Positions 11,481 through 63,350 of a stretch of DNA of 64,000 nucleotides are shown one piece after another. Origin of the DNA: Glaucostegus cemiculus (lineage: Eukaryota); the NCBI GenBank assembly GCA_976551045.1, contig CDPCPM010000026.1, positions 21,948,001 through 22,012,000 on the forward strand, given 5' to 3'. Under the pieces are notes generated by a model, which saw only the letters and a list, made by a program, of their open reading frames with translations, was not told the DNA's origin and ran no database searches. How positions within the stretch are numbered: the stretch's first letter is position 1; each line of letters opens with the position of its first letter. Made by a program: the position numbers and the translations under genes.

Positions 11481-13039
11481 ATGACTAATCTTATATAGTC
11501 TACCTACTCTTTTTGATTTGTTCTAACCTATACAGTTCCTTGTCAACTTTTAGAGAATACAGACTGATCTGGTTTGTGATGAACAGACTTCACCTTTGTT
11601 CTTATGTAAATGTGCACATTATACCCAGTGCAACTTTAGAGCAACAGGGCTGAAAACATTCTTGCAATAAAAGTCATACCAGATATCTCGTCCCAGTAAA
11701 GGTGGCCTGCTTTTGGATTTTGTTACAATAATGAGAGGCTGGACTTGCTGTCCATTGTTTTGCCTGCACATTCTATTTGCATTAACATCTGCGAAACCTC
11801 ACCCAGAGTAGGGTTACAGTTTGACACTGCTTTCTATGAAGAGTAACTTGACCATGCTAGACCATACATCCTGACTAATTATTAAACTCTCTGCAGCTTT
11901 ATCATTTTTCACATCAAAGCACCAGTTGTTAATCAGCAGTGCCACTTGAAAGTCTTTTTGTTGCTGTTACTGCTCGTGACATCCCATTTCTCCATTGACT
12001 GAATGAACTGTCAAATTGTGAAGTCCTCCTTTCTGTTGTTGATTTGAATTTCCACAGAAGTTGCCTTTGTTGCTTGTCTGAGACTTGGATCAGCAGGTTA
12101 TCAAAATGTGACTTTCTTTTATCAACTGAAATTCTTGTTCTCAACTGACAAGACTAGTCATGAGTAAAGGCCATTGCAATGATTGCAACTGGCCATTGGG
12201 CTTGGTTTTATTGTACACACAATTCTTTGAACATAGACTGCAGGTATACAGGCCACTTCTGGCGGACAAAACTGTCCAGTATTTTTGCTTGCCTTTTCCA
12301 TCTACACAAAAACTTATGTGGAAGTTTGAATGCCTGGTTTTGCATGCTTAACAGCTTTGACTGAATTCATTCACCCACAGTCCACACACTAACCTATTAA
12401 GAGGCACAAAAATTGCAATGCATGATAAGTTCTCTAAGCAATGTTCTCACCAACTATCTCATCCTGTTTCTTGTTCTTTACCCCAAACATACAGATCTCA
12501 ACCATTTCAAGCAGCTTCAGATTAAAGTGATCCTTTAGTTTTCATATAAAACCTTTAAAAATAGATCTTTAAAATTGAGTGGCAGGGAAAGATTTGTCGG
12601 GCTGACACACATGCTTCCAGTCCTATCTCCATGTCAGAGGTGCTCATAGATCACATCATTCTAGGTTCCCACTATATTGCCTCCCGCTTCATAATATTGT
12701 TCAGTACGTGAGCTGAATGCCTCTTCAACTTGGTCGAAGCACATGCTGAAGCTCCATTTGTGTCAGCCATGTTGTGCCTCTTACTATTGAACAGTGGCAT
12801 CTCTAAATTTGTTCCATGCAATAGTTCAGTGATAGGTGACATTGCTGAACTTCATCACCATAGCTTGCTGTGCTCTGCTCTCCTTAGTACACATGGGAGG
12901 CTTAGGCAAATGAGATTCCCTGTGAGTGGTGGCAGGAAAATACAAAAAAATCAGGTTCTGGGCTCTAACTCGCCTAAGATCAGCCAGACTAGAGTCATCA
13001 GTGTCCTTTAAGAATCCCGAAAGAAACTCCTGATATTCC

Positions 13040-13590
13040 AAAAAAACTACTGATGATGGGAATCTAAAACAAAAAAACCCAGAAAATGCTGGTAATACTC
13101 AGTAGGTCAGATCACATTAATGGGAGGAGAAATAGAGTCTTTGGTATTGGTACTGGTTTATTATTGTCACTTGTACCGAGGTACTGTGAAAAACTGTCTT
13201 GCATACCGGTCGTACAGGCCAATTCATTGCACAGTGCAGTTGCATTGGGTTAGTACAGAGTGCATTGATTTAGTACAGGTAAAAATAATAACAGTACAGA
13301 GTAAAGTGTCACAGCTACAGAGAACGTGCAGTGCAATAAGGTGCAAGGTCACAACAAGGTAGATCATAAGGTCATAGCCCACCTCATTGTATAAGGGAAC
13401 TGTACAATAGTCTCATCACAGTGGGGTAGAAGCTGCCCTTAAGTCGTACCACCAGACTTAAGGATGTTTCAGGTCGGAGACCCTTCATCAAAGTGTCACC
13501 TCTGACCTCACATATTGACTCTGTATCTCTTCCCAGACATGTCCTCTGAGGCTGCTGAGTATTTCCAGCACTTTCTGTTTGTGTTGCCTG
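13040..13590. mobile_element. Fold-back Penelope-derived element with degenerate hammerhead motif, interrupted by a Rex1/Babar tail
   Basis: Left arm cagaaaatgctggtaatactcagtagg (13080) pairs with right arm ctgctgagtatttccagcactttctg (~13552); reversed core atgtttcaggtcggagacccttcatca at ~13464-13490. Confidence 0.7.
13141..13460 (-). mobile_element. Rex1/Babar-type LINE 3' end with (CCAATA)n tail
   Basis: ttggtattggtactggtttattattgtcacttgtaccgaggtactgtgaaaaact...gtggggtagaagctgcccttaagtc; same tail at 29470 (+) and 59221 (-). Confidence 0.75.
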
Positions 13591-13803
13591 ATATTCCATC
13601 CCTATTGTCAAACTGTAATGTTTTAAGGAGTGTTTGAATGCACAGTCTATAAGCATCCAAAGGGATGGTGGTTTATTTGAAAAGCATCTGACCTACCTCT
13701 ACAGATGTCACTTGAAGAAGACTCATGGGAGACAATGAGCTCCACAGTTGATGGACCAAGCACTGAATGAATTAGTGGAAAAATGAGAGATTCCTGTTTC
13801 ACT

Positions 13804-25547: not shown

Positions 25548-25679
25548 AAGAAACCCATGTCACAAAGATGTCCATTAAAAAAACACAAAAGATGCAAATG
25601 ATAGAAGTTTATAAAATTATGAGAGGTATAGATAGGGTAGGCAGTCAGAATCTTTTTTCCCAGGGTAGAAATGTCAAAT

Positions 25680-25812
25680 GGAGACGAGAGACTGCAGATG
25701 CTGGAATCTGGAACAACACACAAAAAACAGGAGGCACTCTGAGGGTCAGGCAGCATCTCCATGGAGGGAAATGGAGAGTCAACATTTCCGGTCGAGACCC
25801 CTCATCTGGATT
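25680..25812 (-). mobile_element. 133-bp Penelope-derived element starting with a hammerhead motif; 12-bp TSD
   Basis: Flanked by GAAATGTCAAAT at 25668-25679 and 25813-25824; minus strand begins aatccagatgaggggtctcgaccggaaatgttgactc. Confidence 0.8.
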
Positions 25813-25909
25813 GAAATGTCAAATACTAGTGGACTGTCAGGTACCAGAGAGTATTTAAGGTGAGAGTGGGAAAGTTTAAAAGAGGTATGCAGGGCAAATT
25901 TTTTTTACA

Positions 25910-26150
25910 CAGATAAGATATCTTTGTTAGTCACATGTACATCGAAACACACAGTGAAATATGTCTTTTGCATAGAGTGTTCTGGGGGCAGCCTGCAAGT
26001 GTCGCCATGCTTCCAGTGCCCACATAACATGCCCACAACTTCCTAACCCATACGTCTTTGGAATGTGGGACGAAATTGGACCATCCGGAGGAAGCCCACG
26101 CAACCACGGGGAGAACATACAAATTCCTTACAGACAGTGGCCAGAATTGT
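25910..26150 (-). mobile_element. V-SINE with Rex1/Babar-like tail, 5'-truncated, inserted in CR1
   Basis: agataagatatctttgttagtcacatgtacatcgaaacacacagtgaaat...gtctttggaatgtggg...ggggagaacatacaaattccttacagacagtgg; highly similar to 29120-29410. Confidence 0.85.
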
Positions 26151-27414
26151 GCCTGCCCTGAGTGGTAGGTGCCCAGAATGAGCTGCCAGGGGTAGTGGTG
26201 GAAGCAGATATGATAGAGATAGTTAAGAGGCTGTTGGATAGACACATGAATGAATACACAGGGAATGGAGAGTTAAGGATAATGTACAGGCAGAAGTGAT
26301 CTAATTTAATTAGGCATCGGGTTAGGCACAGACATTGTGGGCCAAAGGGCTTGTCCTTGTGTTGTACTGTGCTATGTTCTAATTAATTTCTTTCAGAAAG
26401 CTTCACTGCTGGCCCCCTGGAACAGGAATGGGAATGTGGATGATGGATCAAATTCTCTCAGCAGTGAATAGGAGTTGTTCTTAAACAACGTTCAATGGAC
26501 CTTTGGGTGTAGTTGAAAGAGATAAGGATCAAAGGTAATTAATGAGAGCAAATGCAGTGTAATTAGAGTAACATATACTGGTCAGATTTATGATGGATAG
26601 TCCATGTGCCTATTTCCACAGGCAACATCCTCCCCCACCCATCCCACTACCATAACATCTGACTAGTATATGCTCCATGTTGAGGCGCTTGTGAGAATCT
26701 GAATTAAAGAATCACTTTTTCAGCAAGTATTCTCATCTCTGAGGAGCTAATCACCCAAATGTGGCTTCACCCTGCAAAAGGTGGGGAATCCACAAATACT
26801 GCAGGGAATATGAAGTTCATTGTAACAATGTGTTCTGTTGTGATCTGAACTTTCCTTCAGTTCCAATGGAGCCATGAATGATCCTGAATATCGGTGTTGT
26901 CAACACTACTGCACCTATGTACTTAACTGTTGCCTTTAAAATGGCTTTGTCTATTGTGTTGCGACATATTTAGTACACGTGTCATGGCATAAATTTAGCT
27001 GGGTGAAACTATTCATTTTTTAAATTATCCTTAATTAAATGAATTGAAAAGTGAACATTTGGTATGTCCTGAGCCAAAAATCTGCAAGTTGTCCAACAGG
27101 GTGCCAGTCTGTCTGGTCCACTGATAATACTCTTTGTTTGGCATTTCAGATTGGCTCGATGTGCTAATTGAGGCAGTGAGACCACATATCCAAAGCATAA
27201 TTAACACCTAGTTAGTGAAAATTATGTTCAGTTCACTTTAGAACAAGCACATCAAATAACCACATTAGATAAAACACAGATCCAAATTTCTTTGTCCATA
27301 ATAAATTCAGTATATTCTCTGGACAAGCTACAAAGAAGCAGAATGGGGACCAGCAGGAGAGAGCACAAGAAACCAGAAAGAGGGATGCAGCAATAGCACA
27401 GAAATAAAAGCAAA

Positions 27415-36729: not shown

Positions 36730-37760
36730 GCTTCCGTAGAGTCAAATGTTGTAGAGGCACACTAGTTTTCCAGAACGAATGGACTAGACGGACCAATGAG
36801 CTTTCCCCTTTGAGTTCCCGCGAGTATCCGTGCTTTTCTTTTCTTCCTTCAGGAATTTACAAACATTCACAACAAATCAATAAGGCTATTGATTATTCAT
36901 TGTACAGTGCGTTGTTGGTGCGAAGCTGGCACAGAAAGCAAATGCAGCTTCTGCAAGCCAGCCGCATCCCATCTGGTGGCTGGTGGCACAGAGAAAGGAG
37001 AAAAAAGGCAGGGAGAAAGAACGTGAGAGAAAGCCAGATGAGTGAGAGAGGTGGCAGGGCATCTCCGCAGGCATGGGAAGTACGCATTTATGCTACGTAA
37101 GGGTATGGCAACGTGTAAAAAGAACTGACTCACAGGGAACAGGAGATAGCTACTACGTAACAGAGGTTTCCTTGGCTCTGTGACAAGAAGAGCGGTAAGG
37201 TAATACATGATTGCTGCTCTAATGCTGTGACTATGCAAACGTCTGTGATGCATCCACTTATTTTGCAGTCGTGTAGCGACTGGAACGTGAAGGAGGGGGG
37301 AAAACATTGTGTCGCCTTCTTGTAAGTAAATGTAACTGCATGCAGAAAGGATCGTGAGCTTGAAACCTGCTAAGAGAATTTTTGAAAAGGAAGGGGAGCA
37401 GGAAGCGTTATGCATTAAGGAGCTGTGGCATGCCAAATGTTTTATGAAAATAAAATCGGAAGAGGGAGCGAGAAAAGAGAAGAGAAAGCACAGCTTGGCC
37501 CAGTGCCAACACCAGTGAAATGAATTATAGTGTAGAATAATGGTACACCATTGATCCAGCCACTTGTTTGAGAGCGGTGATTGTCCCCGAGCCCTGACAG
37601 GAATTTCTGTGCGTGCGTACTCTGGGGCTGCATGAGAAAACCAATAAGTCACAACTGCTGACGACACTGTGAGGGAGGAGTGGGTTGCCAAGTGAGCATG
37701 CCCATGTTCAAGTGGTATTCTACTGTATAAATACAAGCGTTCAGTCTTCTCAATGGGAAC
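36730..37760. promoter_or_regulatory. Repeat-free, CpG-retaining candidate conserved element (alternative-exon cluster and/or promoter)
   Basis: Many intact CpGs versus depleted flanks; several minus-strand polypyrimidine-YAG sites; TGCATG motifs; X-box-like ggtatggcaac at 37102; CCAAT at 37641; TATAAATA at 37726. Confidence 0.45.
37134..37177 (-). other. Candidate 44-nt exon
   Basis: Minus strand ccttaccgctcttcttgtcacag|AGCCAAGGAAACCTCTGTTACGTAGTAGCTATCTCCTGTTCCCT|gtgagt, with consensus acceptor and donor; host gene not recognised. Confidence 0.35.
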
Positions 37761-38072
37761 TTCTCATGCACCATTTCCTATTTTATTAACAAAAGGTTTA
37801 CATTCTCCCTAGTCTATCAAAGTTTGCATGAAAGAGGGGCCAGAATGTTCATGCTTTATTCTTAGCAAAATAATTACCAGCTGAAGCAATCTGTTGCAAA
37901 GATCAAAGTACAAAAATCAGCATTTTGCTTACAGGAAATTACTTAATAAAGGCTGGCACCGTGGAAAGACATCCACCAATCACTGTAATAGCAGAACTAC
38001 TCACCTTTACAAATTCTGGGTTAAGCATGGAGCACTGTCCTATCTTGTCGAGGGATGGTAAAGACTGTGTGG

Positions 38073-40864: not shown

Positions 40865-41795
40865 ATCAGAATCAGAATCAGGTTTATTATTACTGACTTG
40901 TATGATGTGAAATTTGTTGTTTTGTGGCAGCAGTACAGTGGAGGCATAAAACTGTTCAGAAATCTGACAGTGGAGTGGAAAAAGCTGTTCCTGAAATGTT
41001 AAGTGTGGGTCTTCAGGCTCCTGTACCTCCTTCCAGATGGTAGTAATGTGAAGAGGGCAGTCCCAGATGGTGAGGGTCCTCAATGATGGATGCTGCCTTC
41101 TTGAGGCACTGCCTCTTGAAGATGTCCTCGATGAAACAGAGGGTTGTGCCTGTGATGGAGCTGGCTGACTCTATAATCCCCTGCAGCCTCTTGCAATCCT
41201 GTGCATTGGAGTCTCCATACCAGGCTGTAATGCAACCAGTCAGAATGCTCTCCACCATACATCTATAGAAATTTGCAAGAGTCTTAGGTGATATACCAAA
41301 TTTCCTCAAACTCCTAATGAAGTAGAGCCACTAGCATGCCTTCTTCGTGGTTGCATCAATGTGTTGAGCACAGGATAGATACTCAGAGAAATTGACACCC
41401 AGGAACTTGAAGCTGCTCACCCTTTCCACTGCTGACCCCTCAATGAGGACTGGTGTGTGCTCTCCCGACTTCCCATTCCTGAAGTCCACAGGAAAGGTCT
41501 TGCTGATGTTGAGTGTGAGGTTGTTGTTGTGATACCTCTCAAACAGCAGATCTATCTCATGTCTGTACGCCTCCTCATCACCATCTCAGATTCTGCCAAC
41601 AATAGTGGTGTCATTAGCAAATTTATAGATGGCATTTGAGCTGTGCCTAGCCACACAGTCATGAGTGTAGAGAGAGTAGAGCAGTGGGCTTAGCATGCAT
41701 CCTTGAGGTGCACTTGTGTTGATTGTCAGTGAGGGGGAGATGTTATTACCAATCTACGCTGACTGTGGCCTCCTGAAAAGGAAGTTGAGGATCCT
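40865..41795 (-). mobile_element. Rex1/Babar LINE, 5'-truncated (RT C-terminus, DUF1891-like region, (GATTCT)n tail)
   Basis: ORF 41013-41309 RKFGISPKTLANFYRCMVESILTGCITAWYG...CLKKAASIIEDPHH; RT catalytic motif decayed to IYKFANDTTIVGRI at ~41590-41632; tail atcagaatcagaatcaggtttatt. Confidence 0.9.
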
Positions 41796-42111
41796 ATATT
41801 AGATCTTTAGAACTTCTGTTTTCAGCACTTCCTCTCATTGAACCCACTTTCCACATGAGAGACAATCTCCGATCTGTTAGACAAAGGATTGTATCTTAGC
41901 TGATTATTGTTGAACTTTGTTAGTGTTAAGGATCATCGTATGGAGGGAGTCTCTTTGTCTGGATTGATGACTATGATTTAACAGGGTCCTTGTGAAAGAT
42001 GTCCCTCTGTCAAGGATTTACTTATTACCCTTGCAGTCGATTCCTCCCTCCTTCATCTGCTGGGAGATGAGGCTGGTGGTTTTCTGCTGGGACTTCCCCC
42101 GGTTACCTTCC

Positions 42112-42170
42112 TCGTCCACAGATGCTGCTTGACTGGTTGAGTTCTTCCAGTGCTTCTGTTTTTGTTTCAG
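42112..42170 (+). mobile_element. Penelope-derived element 3' fragment
   Basis: tccacagatgctgcttgactggttgagttcttccagtgcttctgtttttg. Confidence 0.6.
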
Positions 42171-42400
42171 CCTTCCTTGTCCTCCCACTTCTGTTGTTCT
42201 TCTACCTGTATATTGTGACCTTCAGGCTCTGGACTGCTGCTCTTCTTCCAGTACTGCCATCTCTTTTTGCATTGCTAGGTTGTGCAGCCTGCAGCACACA
42301 ATGAAGTCCGCACGTCTGCTGAGTGTTTACCACAGGGCATCCCCTGACTGACACAGACACCAGAATCTCATTTTCAGAAAACCATAGGTCTTCCACAGTG

Positions 42401-42532
42401 AAACAAAGGACTGTGGATGCTGGGATCTAGGGGAAAAACACTATGATGCTGGAGGAGCTCAGCAGACCAGGCAGCGTCTGTGGAGAAAAGCAGGCAATCA
42501 ACATTTCGGGTCAGGACCCTTCTTTAGGACTG
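42401..42532 (-). mobile_element. Penelope-derived short element starting with a hammerhead motif
   Basis: Minus strand cagtcctaaagaagggtcctgacccgaaatgttgattgcctgcttttctccacagacgctgcctggtctgctgagctcctccagcatc...; same subfamily as 51502-51572. Confidence 0.8.
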
Positions 42533-43311
42533 ACAATAGTGTTTTTTATCTCAGTTTTCCACAGTGATGCTGTTACTAGTGTGACTCTCATTGTAGCAAT
42601 GCTTACGGCTATGGTAGGATTGCATGTTGGTATGAGGAGCCAGCGAAGCTGATGTTAGCCCCTGCCTCCAGGATCCATTCTTCTGTACAGTGTTGGCTGT
42701 GGAAGATGTCCATAGTGCCATCTCACTGAAGGCAAAATGTCAAGTGTCCTTGCGGGACACATCACATTCATCTTCAAGAAATTCTAACGTTACGCTGTAA
42801 CTTCATTGCATCTGGCATTGATCAGGAACTGAGGTTATGTGCAACTACCCAAAGATGAAAAGAATGGAAACTTTTCCACCAGGAAAATGTCTTGGCGATT
42901 CCAGGGAGTTCAGTCAATAGATGCCTTCACTCATGTTAAGACAGCAATGCTGGCCAGTCTCAAACAGGTTTCCCAATGAATGCAGAATGTCCCTTAATTA
43001 GACATAAGTACAACAAAGTTAACATGAAAAGCTTCTGGTTGTAACTGTGAGTGTTCAACAAAGGTTGTATGTTCAGTCTAAATGCTCCAATCTATGCCAT
43101 TATGGGAAGAATCTCTGATGCCTTTAGATGTCACAAAAACATGACATGCTAATGTGAATTGTACACAGAAATGCTCAGAGCATTTGCCTAATGGTTGCAA
43201 CTTTTCCTGGAAATGATCACTAGCCTGGTCTAACTTAGGTTAAGTTACTTTTATGTGCGATTTTTCCCTAGAAACAAGGGAATCCAATTTTCAGGCTGAA
43301 GTATTGTAATC

Positions 43312-44014: not shown

Positions 44015-44570
44015 ACTGAACCTCACTTGGAGTATTGTGTATCGTTCTGGTCACCACACTACAGAAAGTATGTGGTAGCATTAGAAAGAGATTCACAAAC
44101 ATGTGTCCTGGAATGGAGAGCTTTACTTTTAAGGAGTAATTTGACATGCTGGGTTTATACTCACTGGAACATTGGAAGCTGACGGATGACCTTACTGAAG
44201 TTTATAAAATAATGAGGGGTAAAATAGGGTAGATAGTCAGAGTCTTTTTCCCAGTGTAGGGGAGTCTAAAACTAGAGGACAGAGGTTTAAGGTGAGAAGG
44301 GAGAAATTTAAAGGAGAGCTGAGGTGTATGTTTTTCATCCAGAAGGTCATGGTTAAATGGAATGAGCTGCCAAGGGAAGTGGTAGAGGCAGATAAAATTA
44401 CAGCACTTAACAGGCATTTGGGCAGGTACTTGAATAGGAAAGGATTAGAGAGATAAGGACTACATGTGGCAAATGGGATTAGTATTAATAGGCATCACAG
44501 TTGGCATGGGCAAGTTGAGCCGAAGAGCTCGTTTCTGTGCTGTACAATTCTATGACTTTATGAGTCATAA
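44015..44570 (+). mobile_element. CR1 ORF2 C-terminus and 3' UTR
   Basis: cctcacttggagtattgtgtatcgttctggtcaccacactacagaaag translates PHLEYCVSFWSPHYRK; EVYKIMRG; tail gtttctgtgctgtacaattctatgactttatga. Confidence 0.9.
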
Positions 44571-51224: not shown

Positions 51225-51572
51225 AATCCCCCCCTTCCCCACAACTCCCCCCCCACCATGCTTCTTCTCTTCTTCCCTTTCCTAGCCTCCTTTTTTCTAC
51301 CCTTTATTTCCTTTCTCTTCTTACCTTTGACCTATCCCCCAGTGGATCTGCTCTCCCTTCCTCCCCTGCACCTGCCTATCACTATCTCTTATCCGCATCT
51401 TCCTAACACTACCCAGTGCCCACCCCACCTCCCCTCTTTTGTCCACCTATCACTGCTCTGCTTTTCCCTCCTATATATTGGGCTTCCCCTTTTCCTATCT
51501 TCGGTCCTGAAGAAGGGTCCTGACCTGAAACATTGAACGCCTACTTTTCTCCAGCATCATTGTGTTTTTCAT
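51225..51572 (+). mobile_element. Penelope-like element 3' UTR/pLTR fragment (pyrimidine-rich) with hammerhead motif
   Basis: C/T-rich run ending ctatcttcggtcctgaagaagggtcctgacctgaaacattgaacgcctacttttctccagcatc; lacks an internal segment present in the 42401-42532 copy, between two CTCCA microhomologies. Confidence 0.75.
51502..51539 (+). ncRNA. Minimal type I hammerhead ribozyme motif (Penelope-associated)
   Basis: CGGUC-CUGAAGA-AGGGUC CU GACCU-GAAA-CA-UU-GAACG: intact CUGANGA and GAAA core, stem II, stem I CGGUC/GAACG with one mismatch; the loop-3 CG is CA here. Confidence 0.55.
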
Positions 51573-52709: not shown

Positions 52710-53057
52710 GAAAAAGCTGTGAATGCTGGAAATCTGAAATTAAAAAAAAAATCAGATGCTGGATAGATTCAGCAGGTGAAACAACATTTGTGGAAAGAGA
52801 AATAGAGTTAATGTTTCTGGAGACACAGGAGACAGTAGATGTTGGAACCTGGAAAAATAAACAAACTGCTGGAGGAACTCAACAGGTTGAGCAGCATCTT
52901 TGGAGGGGAAGGGAATTGTTGATGTTTTGGGTCGAGACCCTGTACCAGCCCTGGAGCAGAGTTTTGACCCGAAACTTCAACAACTCCTTTCCCCCCGCAG
53001 GTACTGATTGACCCACTGAGTTCCTGCAGTAGTTTGTTGTTTAATGTTTCAGGTCTC
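52710..53057 (-). mobile_element. Penelope-derived element, interrupted inside its hammerhead by a second copy
   Basis: aatgctggaaatctgaaat...cagatgctggatagattcagcagg...gagaaatagagttaatgtttc, then insert, then ttaatgtttcaggtc. Confidence 0.7.
52818..53040. mobile_element. Fold-back (palindromic) Penelope-derived insert with 10-bp TSD
   Basis: TTAATGTTTC at 52808-52817 and 53041-53050; arms aaacaaactgctggaggaactca...gggtcgagaccctgtaccag and ctggagcagagttttgacccgaaac...tgagttcctgcagtagtttgtt. Confidence 0.8.
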
Positions 53058-53824
53058 GGATGTATAAATCAATATTAAATGTTGGTATTTGGAGTCATTT
53101 GAGTGTTTTTATTCTGGAGAATCAAGTAGTATTCAGGTAGAATAAGTAATTAAGAAGATACATTAAGGTTGTTCTTCATAGCAAGAGCAATGATACCTTG
53201 AAATAACTGAACAAAACTCCATGAGACCATGCCTGCAGTAGACGTTGCAGTTAAGTGAAGAAGGATAAACTTGTTTATTGAGACAATCCAACAGAGGTTT
53301 TAATAGATTGATTACTGGGATAAGAATGTTGTGTTATGGGGAAGCTTTGAACAGACTAGGCCTATTTATGGAGTCCAGAAGAGTGAGAGATGATCTCATT
53401 TGAACATATAAAATAAAATGATGGCTTGTCAGAAGATGTTTATCATGTTGGGGTGGCATAGTTTCAGTATATGTTGCTAACCACACATGGCCATGATGAG
53501 GTGGAATTTCTGCTCTCAGAAAATCTTTCTAATTACTTTCCCCAGAATGCTGTGGATATTGAGACGTTATGCAATGTTGAGATAGATTATTGGACCATAG
53601 AGGAGGCAGAGGGGAAAGTAGAGTTGAAGCTGAAGATCTGATCAGCCATCACCTTGCTGATTGGAGGGGTAGGCCACAACGGCCATATAGCTTACCCCTC
53701 CTCCTCCTTCTAGTGCTCTGATATGTAAATGGAGTATATCTCCAAATGGAAAATGGTGAAGGTATTGGTGAGGTAAAATAAACCATTCATTTGAAGTCTA
53801 AGTGCGGTCAGATAAAATCTGATA

Positions 53825-62701: not shown

Positions 62702-63350
62702 CTATTCCCAGGCACTGGGTCTATGCACACACCCGAACGAATTGGCGAATCCCGGTTCCGGTCACACGTAACAACATTCCCAGTCCAAGGGTCCAGCTAC
62801 ACACCGAACGGCATTCACAGTCCATGTGTCCAGCCACACACCAAACAGCATTCCCAGTCCACGAGTCCAACCATACACCAAACAGCATTCCCAGTCCATG
62901 GGTCCAGCCACACGCCAAACAGCATTCCCAGTCCATGGGTCCAGCCACACACCAAACAGCATTCCCAGTCCACGAGTCCAACCATACACCAAACAGCATT
63001 CCCAGTCCATGGGTCCAGCCACACACCAAACAGCATTCCCAGTCCATGGGTCCAGCCACACACCAAACAGCATTCCCAGTCCATGGGTCCAGCCACACAC
63101 CAAACAGCATTCCCAGTCCATGGGTCCAGCCACACACCAAACAGCATTCCCAGTCCATGGGTTGAGTCACACACTTAATGGCACTCCCAGTCCACAGGTC
63201 CAGCCAACACACCAAACAGCACTCCCATTCTACGGGTCCAGCCACACACCTAACGTCATTCCCAATCCCTGGGCTCCATTTACAAACCCAAACGCATACC
63301 CACGAATGGCTCCAGCTATACACCTGATCACACTCCCAGTCCCAGGCCAT
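62702..63350. repeat. 37-bp minisatellite (cattcccagtccatgggtccagccacacaccaaacag), roughly 17 units including degenerate edges
   Basis: Unit starts e.g. 63071 and 63108; near-identical core ~62850-63160; the overlapping ORFs on both strands are artefacts of it. Confidence 0.95.

What the first reader, a model, noticed from the sequence alone, without database searches (positions are those of the whole stretch)
25668..25824. 133-bp hammerhead-headed insertion with a perfect 12-bp TSD: a possible ribozyme-defined non-autonomous retroelement
Seen: a CR1 copy is interrupted by a 133-bp insert flanked by GAAATGTCAAAT on both sides. The insert's 5' end (minus strand) falls in the 5' strand of hammerhead stem I, and it has no tRNA head, poly-A tail or ORF. 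The independent 132-bp copy at 42401-42532 stops at essentially the same point (…ggactg). Inference: this may be a discrete ~130-nt mobile unit whose boundary is set by the ribozyme fold (an RT stall or template end), mobilised in trans by Penelope RT/GIY-YIG, rather than random 5' truncation. It would be SINE- or retrozyme-like.
Basis: partly seen in the sequence, partly recalled or inferred. Interest (0 to 1): 0.7.

Follow-up and report, generated by a model that had tools for sequence, protein, structure and literature searches.

The report
Short Penelope copy starting at hammerhead
This 133-base insertion is real and looks like the short, decayed end piece of a Penelope-type jumping gene; it and three similar copies nearby stop just before a ribozyme motif, likely because the copied RNA begins there, so it is mostly a known kind of element with one unexplained regularity.

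Summary
Confirmed: a 133-bp insert (25680-25812, minus strand) with an exact 12-bp TSD interrupts the 3' end of a CR1-like LINE; paralogous LINE copies carry the 12-mer once. The insert is a degenerate minimal hammerhead plus about 100 nt, ending in the 30-40-nt 'tail' typical of Penelope-like elements (PLEs). The window holds seven insertion events of this group. Three are head-to-head, with the tail on one arm only (a published PLE layout), and one runs about 280 nt further upstream, so the unit is the end of a longer element. All four tailed arms with a significant TSD stop 0-12 nt before the hammerhead core, about 30 nt from the cut site, so self-cleavage did not set the boundary. The 42.4-kb 'independent copy' is the long arm of a 155-bp two-armed insert. 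It is not a tandem retrozyme and has no tRNA head. Best reading: run-off copy from internal priming to the RNA 5' end; rival: joining by short matches at the stem I palindrome. A genome-wide breakpoint test was not achieved. The scan noted this pattern before in other genomes (five notes).

The parts
25668..25679 (+). Left copy of the 12-bp target-site duplication; native LINE sequence
   Evidence: single copy in LINE paralogs
25680..25812 (-). Event A: 133-bp PLE end module (minimal hammerhead, spacer, tail), single arm
25776..25812 (-). Degenerate minimal type I hammerhead: stem I 5' strand 25812-25809, core 25808-25802, extra base 25801, stem II 25800-25789, GAAA 25788-25785, cleavage triplet 25783-25781 (cut would fall after 25781), stem I 3' strand 25780-25776
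   Evidence: read from the sequence against the motif in PMC4209133; alignment; family majority letters; no Rfam hit
25680..25717 (-). Tail: last ~38 nt, absent from the short arm of event C; ends at the family's defined 3' end
   Evidence: loose ends before 25687 in all four runs
25813..25824 (+). Right copy of the TSD; its first base also fits the element's stem I (at least 1 nt of microhomology)
25598..25910 (+). Host: 3' part of a CR1-like LINE ORF2, interrupted by event A; continues at 26162-26380 after another repeat
   Evidence: name CR1 recalled
25835..25851 (+). About 14 extra bases in the LINE, 10 nt past the TSD, absent from paralogs; origin unexplained
   Evidence: joints and letters between; contig 16 of run X2 spans them
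42391..42567 (.). Event B: 11-bp TSD (42391, 42557); tailed long arm on minus (42402 to 42532, perhaps 42539) plus a ~21-nt inverted tail-less arm
   Evidence: (11-nt match of the short arm, null 0.0006)
52808..53053 (.). Event C: 13-bp TSD with one mismatch (52808, 53041); tailed arm on minus and 95-nt tail-less arm on plus, joined across the CAG-NN-CTG palindrome at 52946-52953
13029..13598 (.). Event D: 12-bp TSD (13029, 13587); tailed arm on minus split by a later ~320-bp insertion, ending at the core edge near 13491-13495; tail-less arm on plus starting in stem II
51225..51569 (+). Event E: long copy with 279 nt of 81% pyrimidine sequence upstream of the hammerhead and an internal deletion; TSD not significant
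42106..42182 (+). Event F: 53-bp tail-less copy that starts ~45-50 nt downstream of the core; 12-bp TSD with one mismatch
   Evidence: null 2 of 1488
52712..53070 (-). Event G: older tailed copy into which event C inserted; 5' end unresolved, TSD not significant

Best explanation
The insert is a short, decayed copy of what is very likely the end module of a Penelope-like retroelement (minimal hammerhead, spacer, tail), likely made when the element's RT primed internally about 120 nt downstream of hammerhead stem II and ran off the 5' end of an RNA that would begin just before the hammerhead. Shown: the TSD, the boundaries, the tail on one arm only, the longer relative, and the clustering of tailed 5' ends in this window. 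Inferred from the anole Poseidon work (PMC11167929): a GIY-YIG staggered cut of 11-13 bp, both strands extended, and two RT start sites 30-40 nt apart, which give tailed and tail-less arms. My own inference: tailed arms are copied from the 5' copy of the module on the RNA and so have a fixed end, while tail-less arms are ordinary, variably truncated products. The ribozyme marks the position but its cleavage does not make the end.
For: 4 of 4 tailed arms with a significant TSD (A, B, C, D) end 0-12 nt upstream of core C3. Tail-less arms end at scattered places: about -280 (E), at the edge (C), in stem II (D), about +45 (F), and a 21-nt stub (B). Stem II start to 3' end is 121 nt in A, against RT starts at 111-118 nt in the anole element. 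The short arm of C lacks 37-38 nt, matching the 30-40-nt tail on one end only. The 3' end is sharply defined with A-rich flanks in all four runs, and A is followed by ATT, the motif the anole enzyme prefers. The cut site is 32 nt inside the unit. About half of the RNA reads at 25807 (193 of 401, first mate +) share the changed core base, so copies spread with a variant core; the anole enzyme inserts RNA without hammerhead cleavage.
Against: No transcription start or RNA end was seen: one search lists no place where many molecules begin or end (one RNA run, another species, 18% read). The 5' loose ends were not among the 24 rows shown (1304 hidden), and read depth falls from about 2350 on the tail to about 615 near the 5' end, which is no plateau, though the divergence of this copy confounds it. 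B probably reaches -12 and joins its short arm through a 4-nt match, and C joins across a natural palindrome, so short matches may pick the stop. n is 4, the split into tailed and tail-less arms was made after looking, and G is unresolved. In D. virilis Penelope the start lies 46 nt plus a 75-nt intron upstream of helix I, not at it. Only A of the four has ATT at its 3' junction. No Penelope ORF was found among 30 of the 65 ORFs scanned.
Confidence: 0.55

Rival explanations
1. Same PLE end module, but copied from a longer RNA. The stop is chosen at the joining step: the cDNA end anneals through the CAG-NN-CTG palindrome at the stem I/core border, or through a few matching bases, to the second cDNA or to the target.
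For: C pivots exactly on the palindrome. B overlaps its short arm by 4 nt near -12. The first 1-3 TSD bases of A fit the upstream sequence of the long relative E. Palindromes at inverted junctions and microhomology 5' joins are published for rotifer PLEs. E shows that longer templates exist.
Against: A has no second arm, and D and B join partners at other positions, yet all long arms stop at the same place. Matches of 1-4 nt are available everywhere and would not by themselves give one peak.
Confidence: 0.25
2. A separate non-autonomous master element of about 130 nt (SINE- or retrozyme-like), transcribed as its own RNA and moved in trans by PLE proteins.
For: The family is very abundant (8124 of 11,053,536 RNA reads and 9230-33152 contigs per run laid, LINE flanks included). 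Whole-unit paralogs exist (X17 records 1, 2, 7). A core variant is shared by many copies. pLTR sequence alone can support movement in trans, and animal retrozymes derive from pLTRs.
Against: At least three diverged subfamilies (65-70% alike) share the layout, as expected from a property of the PLE mechanism. E extends upstream. No tandem array, no tRNA head, no stable fold (z -0.36), and no RNA end pile-up.
Confidence: 0.12
3. Ordinary random 5' truncation of a longer PLE, with the clustering due to small numbers and to searching with a 133-bp seed.
For: Heavy 5' truncation is typical of PLEs. E, F and the short arms end elsewhere. RNA depth declines towards the 5' end.
Against: Longer copies were detectable (E was found), yet 4 of 4 tailed arms stop within about 12 nt; rough p of 1e-3 or less for the two unselected copies.
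Confidence: 0.08

Closest known systems
Short or solo pLTR insertions of endonuclease-positive Penelope-like elements (PMC3846280, PMC8557442; passages read)
   Same: Inverted 5' arm, 30-40-nt tail on one end only, TSD of similar size (8-10 bp in rotifer, 11-13 bp here), palindrome at the inverted junction, hammerhead in the repeat.
   Different: Units here are reduced to hammerhead plus tail with no ORF. The passages I read describe variable 5' truncation, not a preferred stop at stem I.
Poseidon element of Anolis carolinensis (PMC11167929; parts 1-2 of 4 read, supplementary PDFs gave almost no text)
   Same: RT starts 111-118 nt past the start of stem II (121 nt to the end here); two start sites define the tail; both strands extended; AT-rich, ATT target; hammerhead cleavage not needed.
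   Different: There the ORF starts in the hammerhead; no such frame was tested here and the clade of this family is not determined. The text read does not map genomic 5' ends; Fig. S2, which I could not see, may bear on this.
Minimal hammerheads of metazoan PLEs (PMC4209133; parts 1-2 of 4 read)
   Same: Short helix I, extra base between positions 9 and 10.1, no real helix III with palindromic 15.2-16.2, thousands of single dispersed copies thought to be truncated PLEs.
   Different: This copy has four changes at conserved positions, one of them (position 4) shared by a large part of the family.
Animal non-LTR retrozymes (PMC7229834 passages; bioRxiv 10.64898/2026.07.22.740005 parts 1-3 of 5)
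   Same: Non-coding, type I hammerhead, related to pLTRs, dispersed monomers exist.
   Different: Retrozymes are defined as tandem repeats with a hammerhead in each unit, expressed as circles; here there are single or head-to-head units whose ends are not at the cut site.

Membership tests
Penelope-like element terminal (pLTR/tail) insertion | Minimal type I hammerhead in the repeat | tested here: met
   Motif read by hand; family majority letters restore it; stem II 91% paired in 9 rows, but no covariation above shuffles; copy B folds in that shape; Rfam gives no hit
Penelope-like element terminal (pLTR/tail) insertion | Optional 30-40-nt tail, on one end only | tested here: met
   Short arm of C lacks 37-38 nt; short arms of D and B lack about 25 nt
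Penelope-like element terminal (pLTR/tail) insertion | Adjacent inverted 5'-truncated copy | tested here: met
   Events B, C, D (3 of 7); absent from event A itself
Penelope-like element terminal (pLTR/tail) insertion | Target-site duplication | tested here: met
   Significant in 5 of 7 events (A, B, C, D, F), not in E or G
Penelope-like element terminal (pLTR/tail) insertion | Link to an RT plus GIY-YIG ORF | tested here: inconclusive
   No RT or GIY-YIG hit in 30 of 65 ORFs; no full six-frame scan, no genome held; E gives only 279 nt of non-coding upstream sequence
Non-LTR retrozyme | Head-to-tail tandem units, each with a hammerhead | tested here: not met
   None of 14 tandem arrays overlaps a copy's hammerhead; copies are single or head-to-head
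Non-LTR retrozyme | RNA ends set by self-cleavage; circular RNA | tested here: inconclusive
   DNA ends lie 32 nt from the cut site; no RNA start or end pile-up in one run of another species; circles not testable
SINE | Pol III head derived from tRNA, 5S or 7SL | tested here: not met
   ARAGORN 0 genes; no such Rfam match; a decayed head could be missed, but the 5' end is the hammerhead itself
SINE | A-rich or simple-repeat 3' tail | tested here: not met
   Sequence; defined complex 3' end
Active hammerhead ribozyme (this copy) | Intact core, G10.1-C11.1 pair, cleavable triplet | tested here: not met
   Changes at positions 4, 11.1, 15.2 and 17; does not fold as a hammerhead; cleavage not assayed

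The most novel reading that the evidence does not exclude
Penelope RT routinely primes on the 5' end of its own RNA and runs off at hammerhead stem I, making a discrete ~130-nt product in huge numbers. These copies would be a genome-wide record of the PLE RNA 5' end, and the hammerhead would act as a boundary or protein-binding fold, not as a catalyst, since a subfamily with a changed core base amplified. In the boldest form the unit has become its own minimal master element.
Probability: 0.25. Interest if true: 0.6.

Novelty: new member of a known kind. Interest (0 to 1): 0.3.

Why it matters
How PLEs form their ends and what their hammerhead does are open questions (PMC8557442, PMC11167929). 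A sharp 5' stop at the upstream edge of the ribozyme, confined to tailed arms, would be a cheap genomic test of where the template RNA begins and would exclude self-cleavage as the cause. The single locus is an old, decayed copy of an abundant repeat and has no evident function.

Tried and rejected
No whole genome is held, so the genome-wide BLAST was not possible. Rfam: 0 matches at gathering score in the window; none of 7 matches at E up to 10 was a hammerhead. Pattern scans: 3 loci in metagenome contigs hold hammerheads of an unrelated family with a different helix III; 0 in viral contigs; 3 tail-pattern hits were chance matches. No RNA holder listed. Laying 4 of 24 runs did not show the 5' loose ends. 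No empty orthologous site was seen; one contig of organism B appears to carry the insert. Covariation test on 9 rows: not above shuffles (one search had stem I one column out of register). The ESM Atlas gave only unnamed clusters for the LINE piece. A read-through six-frame Pfam scan was not completed, so decayed PLE ORF remnants in the window remain possible. Supplementary PDFs of PMC11167929 gave almost no text; bioRxiv supplements were not seen. Rejected: chance TSD; self-cleavage as the boundary; RT stall at the fold; 3' splice site as the exact boundary (B and C keep the CAG; not excluded for A). TSDs for E and G are not significant and were left out of the 4-of-4 count. Five paper searches listed no paper whose title or abstract start describes a 5' peak at stem I; subscription papers are not covered.

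Full report
Observation. The 12-mer at 25668-25679 is repeated exactly at 25813-25824, cannot be extended, and is found nowhere else in the window; the insert between is 133 bp. Random zone pairs never gave such a match (0 of about 2000 exact; 0 of 1493 with one mismatch). The host is the 3' part of a LINE ORF2. A paralog at 44223-44453 finds one protein, P0001 (388 aa, PF00078, 61% identical), and P0001 matches 25598-25660 and 26162-26251. The name CR1, and the guess that the host is a shark or ray, are recalled and come from no call. In three contig runs, LINE paralogs pass through the 12-mer once, so the duplication is of target sequence. One 134-nt contig of organism B spans 25767-25901 with 10 differences and is likely the filled ortholog; no empty ortholog was seen.

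The ribozyme motif. On the minus strand the insert begins 4 nt before core position C3 (25808). It has the layout of the minimal PLE hammerhead described in PMC4209133: short stem I, an extra base after position 9, stem II, and no real helix III. The cut site would lie after 25781, 32 nt inside the unit. This copy departs from the motif at positions 4, 11.1, 15.2 and 17. It is not found by Rfam and does not fold as a hammerhead; the whole unit folds no better than shuffles (z -0.36, 63 of 200). Most laid RNA reads carry the expected letters at three of these places (493 of 721, 500 of 748, 513 of 766, first mate +). At position 4 only 208 of 401 carry the canonical base, and most contig depth shares the variant, although bias to the reference near alignment ends inflates this. 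The position-4 change is thus likely a subfamily trait. Across 9 aligned rows stem II is 91% paired and stem I 40%, with no covariation above shuffles. The 39-nt motif of the 42.5-kb copy folds in the hammerhead shape but with z -1.35 only.

Relatives in the window. Profile searches gave ten pieces with E below 1e-5, against a best E of 0.53 on the reversed window. They resolve into seven events. A is the finding. C (TSD 13 bp, one mismatch) is head-to-head; its short arm lacks the last 37-38 nt and the arms overlap on the CAG-NN-CTG palindrome at the stem I/core border. D (TSD 12 bp) is head-to-head, its long arm split by a later insertion. F is a 53-bp copy with a 12-bp TSD that never reaches the hammerhead. 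E continues 279 nt upstream in 81% pyrimidine sequence; G is an older copy that C interrupts. The TSDs of E and G are not significant (565 of 1495, 160 of 1496).

What it is. Inverted arm, tail on one end only, TSD and junction palindrome are the published anatomy of endonuclease-positive PLE insertions. In the anole Poseidon element RT starts internally 111-118 nt past the start of stem II, two start sites bound the tail, both strands are extended, ATT is the preferred target, and hammerhead mutants still insert. In A the distance from stem II to the end is 121 nt and ATT follows; B, C and D lack ATT. All four runs show a defined 3' end with A-rich flanks. E shows that the module ends a longer element. 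I put the identity as a PLE end module at about 0.9; a link to an RT/GIY-YIG ORF was not shown (0 such hits in 30 of 65 ORFs).

The 5' boundary. The four tailed arms with a significant TSD end at -4 (A), -5 to -12 (B), 0 to -5 (C) and about -1 to -4 (D) relative to C3. Tail-less arms end at scattered places. Self-cleavage would put the end 32 nt inside. A stall at the fold would be expected at the 3' side. So the template end, or the joining step, is left. I favour run-off at the RNA 5' end, because single-arm A and the long arms of B and D stop at the same place with different partners. Against it: B may reach -12 with a 4-nt overlap, C pivots on the palindrome, the D. virilis start site lies well upstream, with an intron ending at helix I, and no RNA start was seen.

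Reads. Four of 24 listed runs were laid at 80% likeness; none is from this species by word share (0.30 at best). The family is abundant (8124 of 11,053,536 RNA reads; 29167, 33152 and 9230 contigs; LINE flanks included). No place had many molecule starts or ends. Depth falls from the tail to the 5' end, but differences in the middle of this copy split the alignments, and the 5' loose ends were among the 1304 rows not shown. The genome-wide test is therefore open. First mates on + exceed those on - about 2.3-fold over the 5' half against 1.2-fold on the LINE flank; the library's strand rule is not on record and this may reflect host transcripts.

Comparison. It is not a retrozyme as defined (tandem units with a hammerhead each): no copy is in a tandem array. 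It is not a SINE (no tRNA head; no simple tail). It works like a non-autonomous passenger only in that the copy is non-coding. Single dispersed minimal hammerheads were already ascribed to truncated PLEs in 2014. Five paper searches listed no paper describing the 5' peak by title or abstract start; unseen supplements may bear on this. Five notes of this scan report the same pattern in other genomes; my reading was written before that, and those notes are leads, not support.

Verdict. Real, and ordinary in kind: a short PLE end-module insertion. The non-random 5' stop is the one point of interest and can be tested directly on any assembly. Interest 0.3.

Noticed in passing
window 25835-25851: About 14 extra bases in the LINE, 10 nt past the right TSD, absent from paralogs and apparently present in organism B; perhaps a second small event at the same cut.
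   Followed up: partly
window 52712-53070: Event C inserted into the hammerhead region of an older relative (G): one PLE end module nested in another.
   Followed up: partly
window 51490-51508: The long copy has a pyrimidine tract ending at stem I, like a 3' splice site; the D. virilis Penelope intron ends at helix I.
   Followed up: no
window 25687-25692 (run X21): A second class of RNA loose ends (944 reads, agreement 0.72) shares one flank: a highly expressed host transcript or a subfamily with another 3' end.
   Followed up: no
L001 663-708, L002 1-42, L003 696-742: Hammerheads of another family with a longer palindromic helix III; L003 loses similarity to L001 and L002 about 10 nt upstream of the core, a similar 5' stop in a different animal.
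   Followed up: partly
window 62763-63278: 37-bp minisatellite, 13.9 copies, overlapping open frames of about 210 codons on both strands.
   Followed up: no
window 36897-37763: 288-codon open frame on the minus strand with no Pfam match.
   Followed up: partly
window 41097-41792: Decayed RT of a second LINE family (26% to P0001, E 3e-13), beside a weak ALKBH8_N match typical of such LINE ends (typicality recalled).
   Followed up: no
P0001: A LINE RT 61% identical to this animal repeat is labelled Proteus mirabilis in its source, likely host contamination.
   Followed up: no
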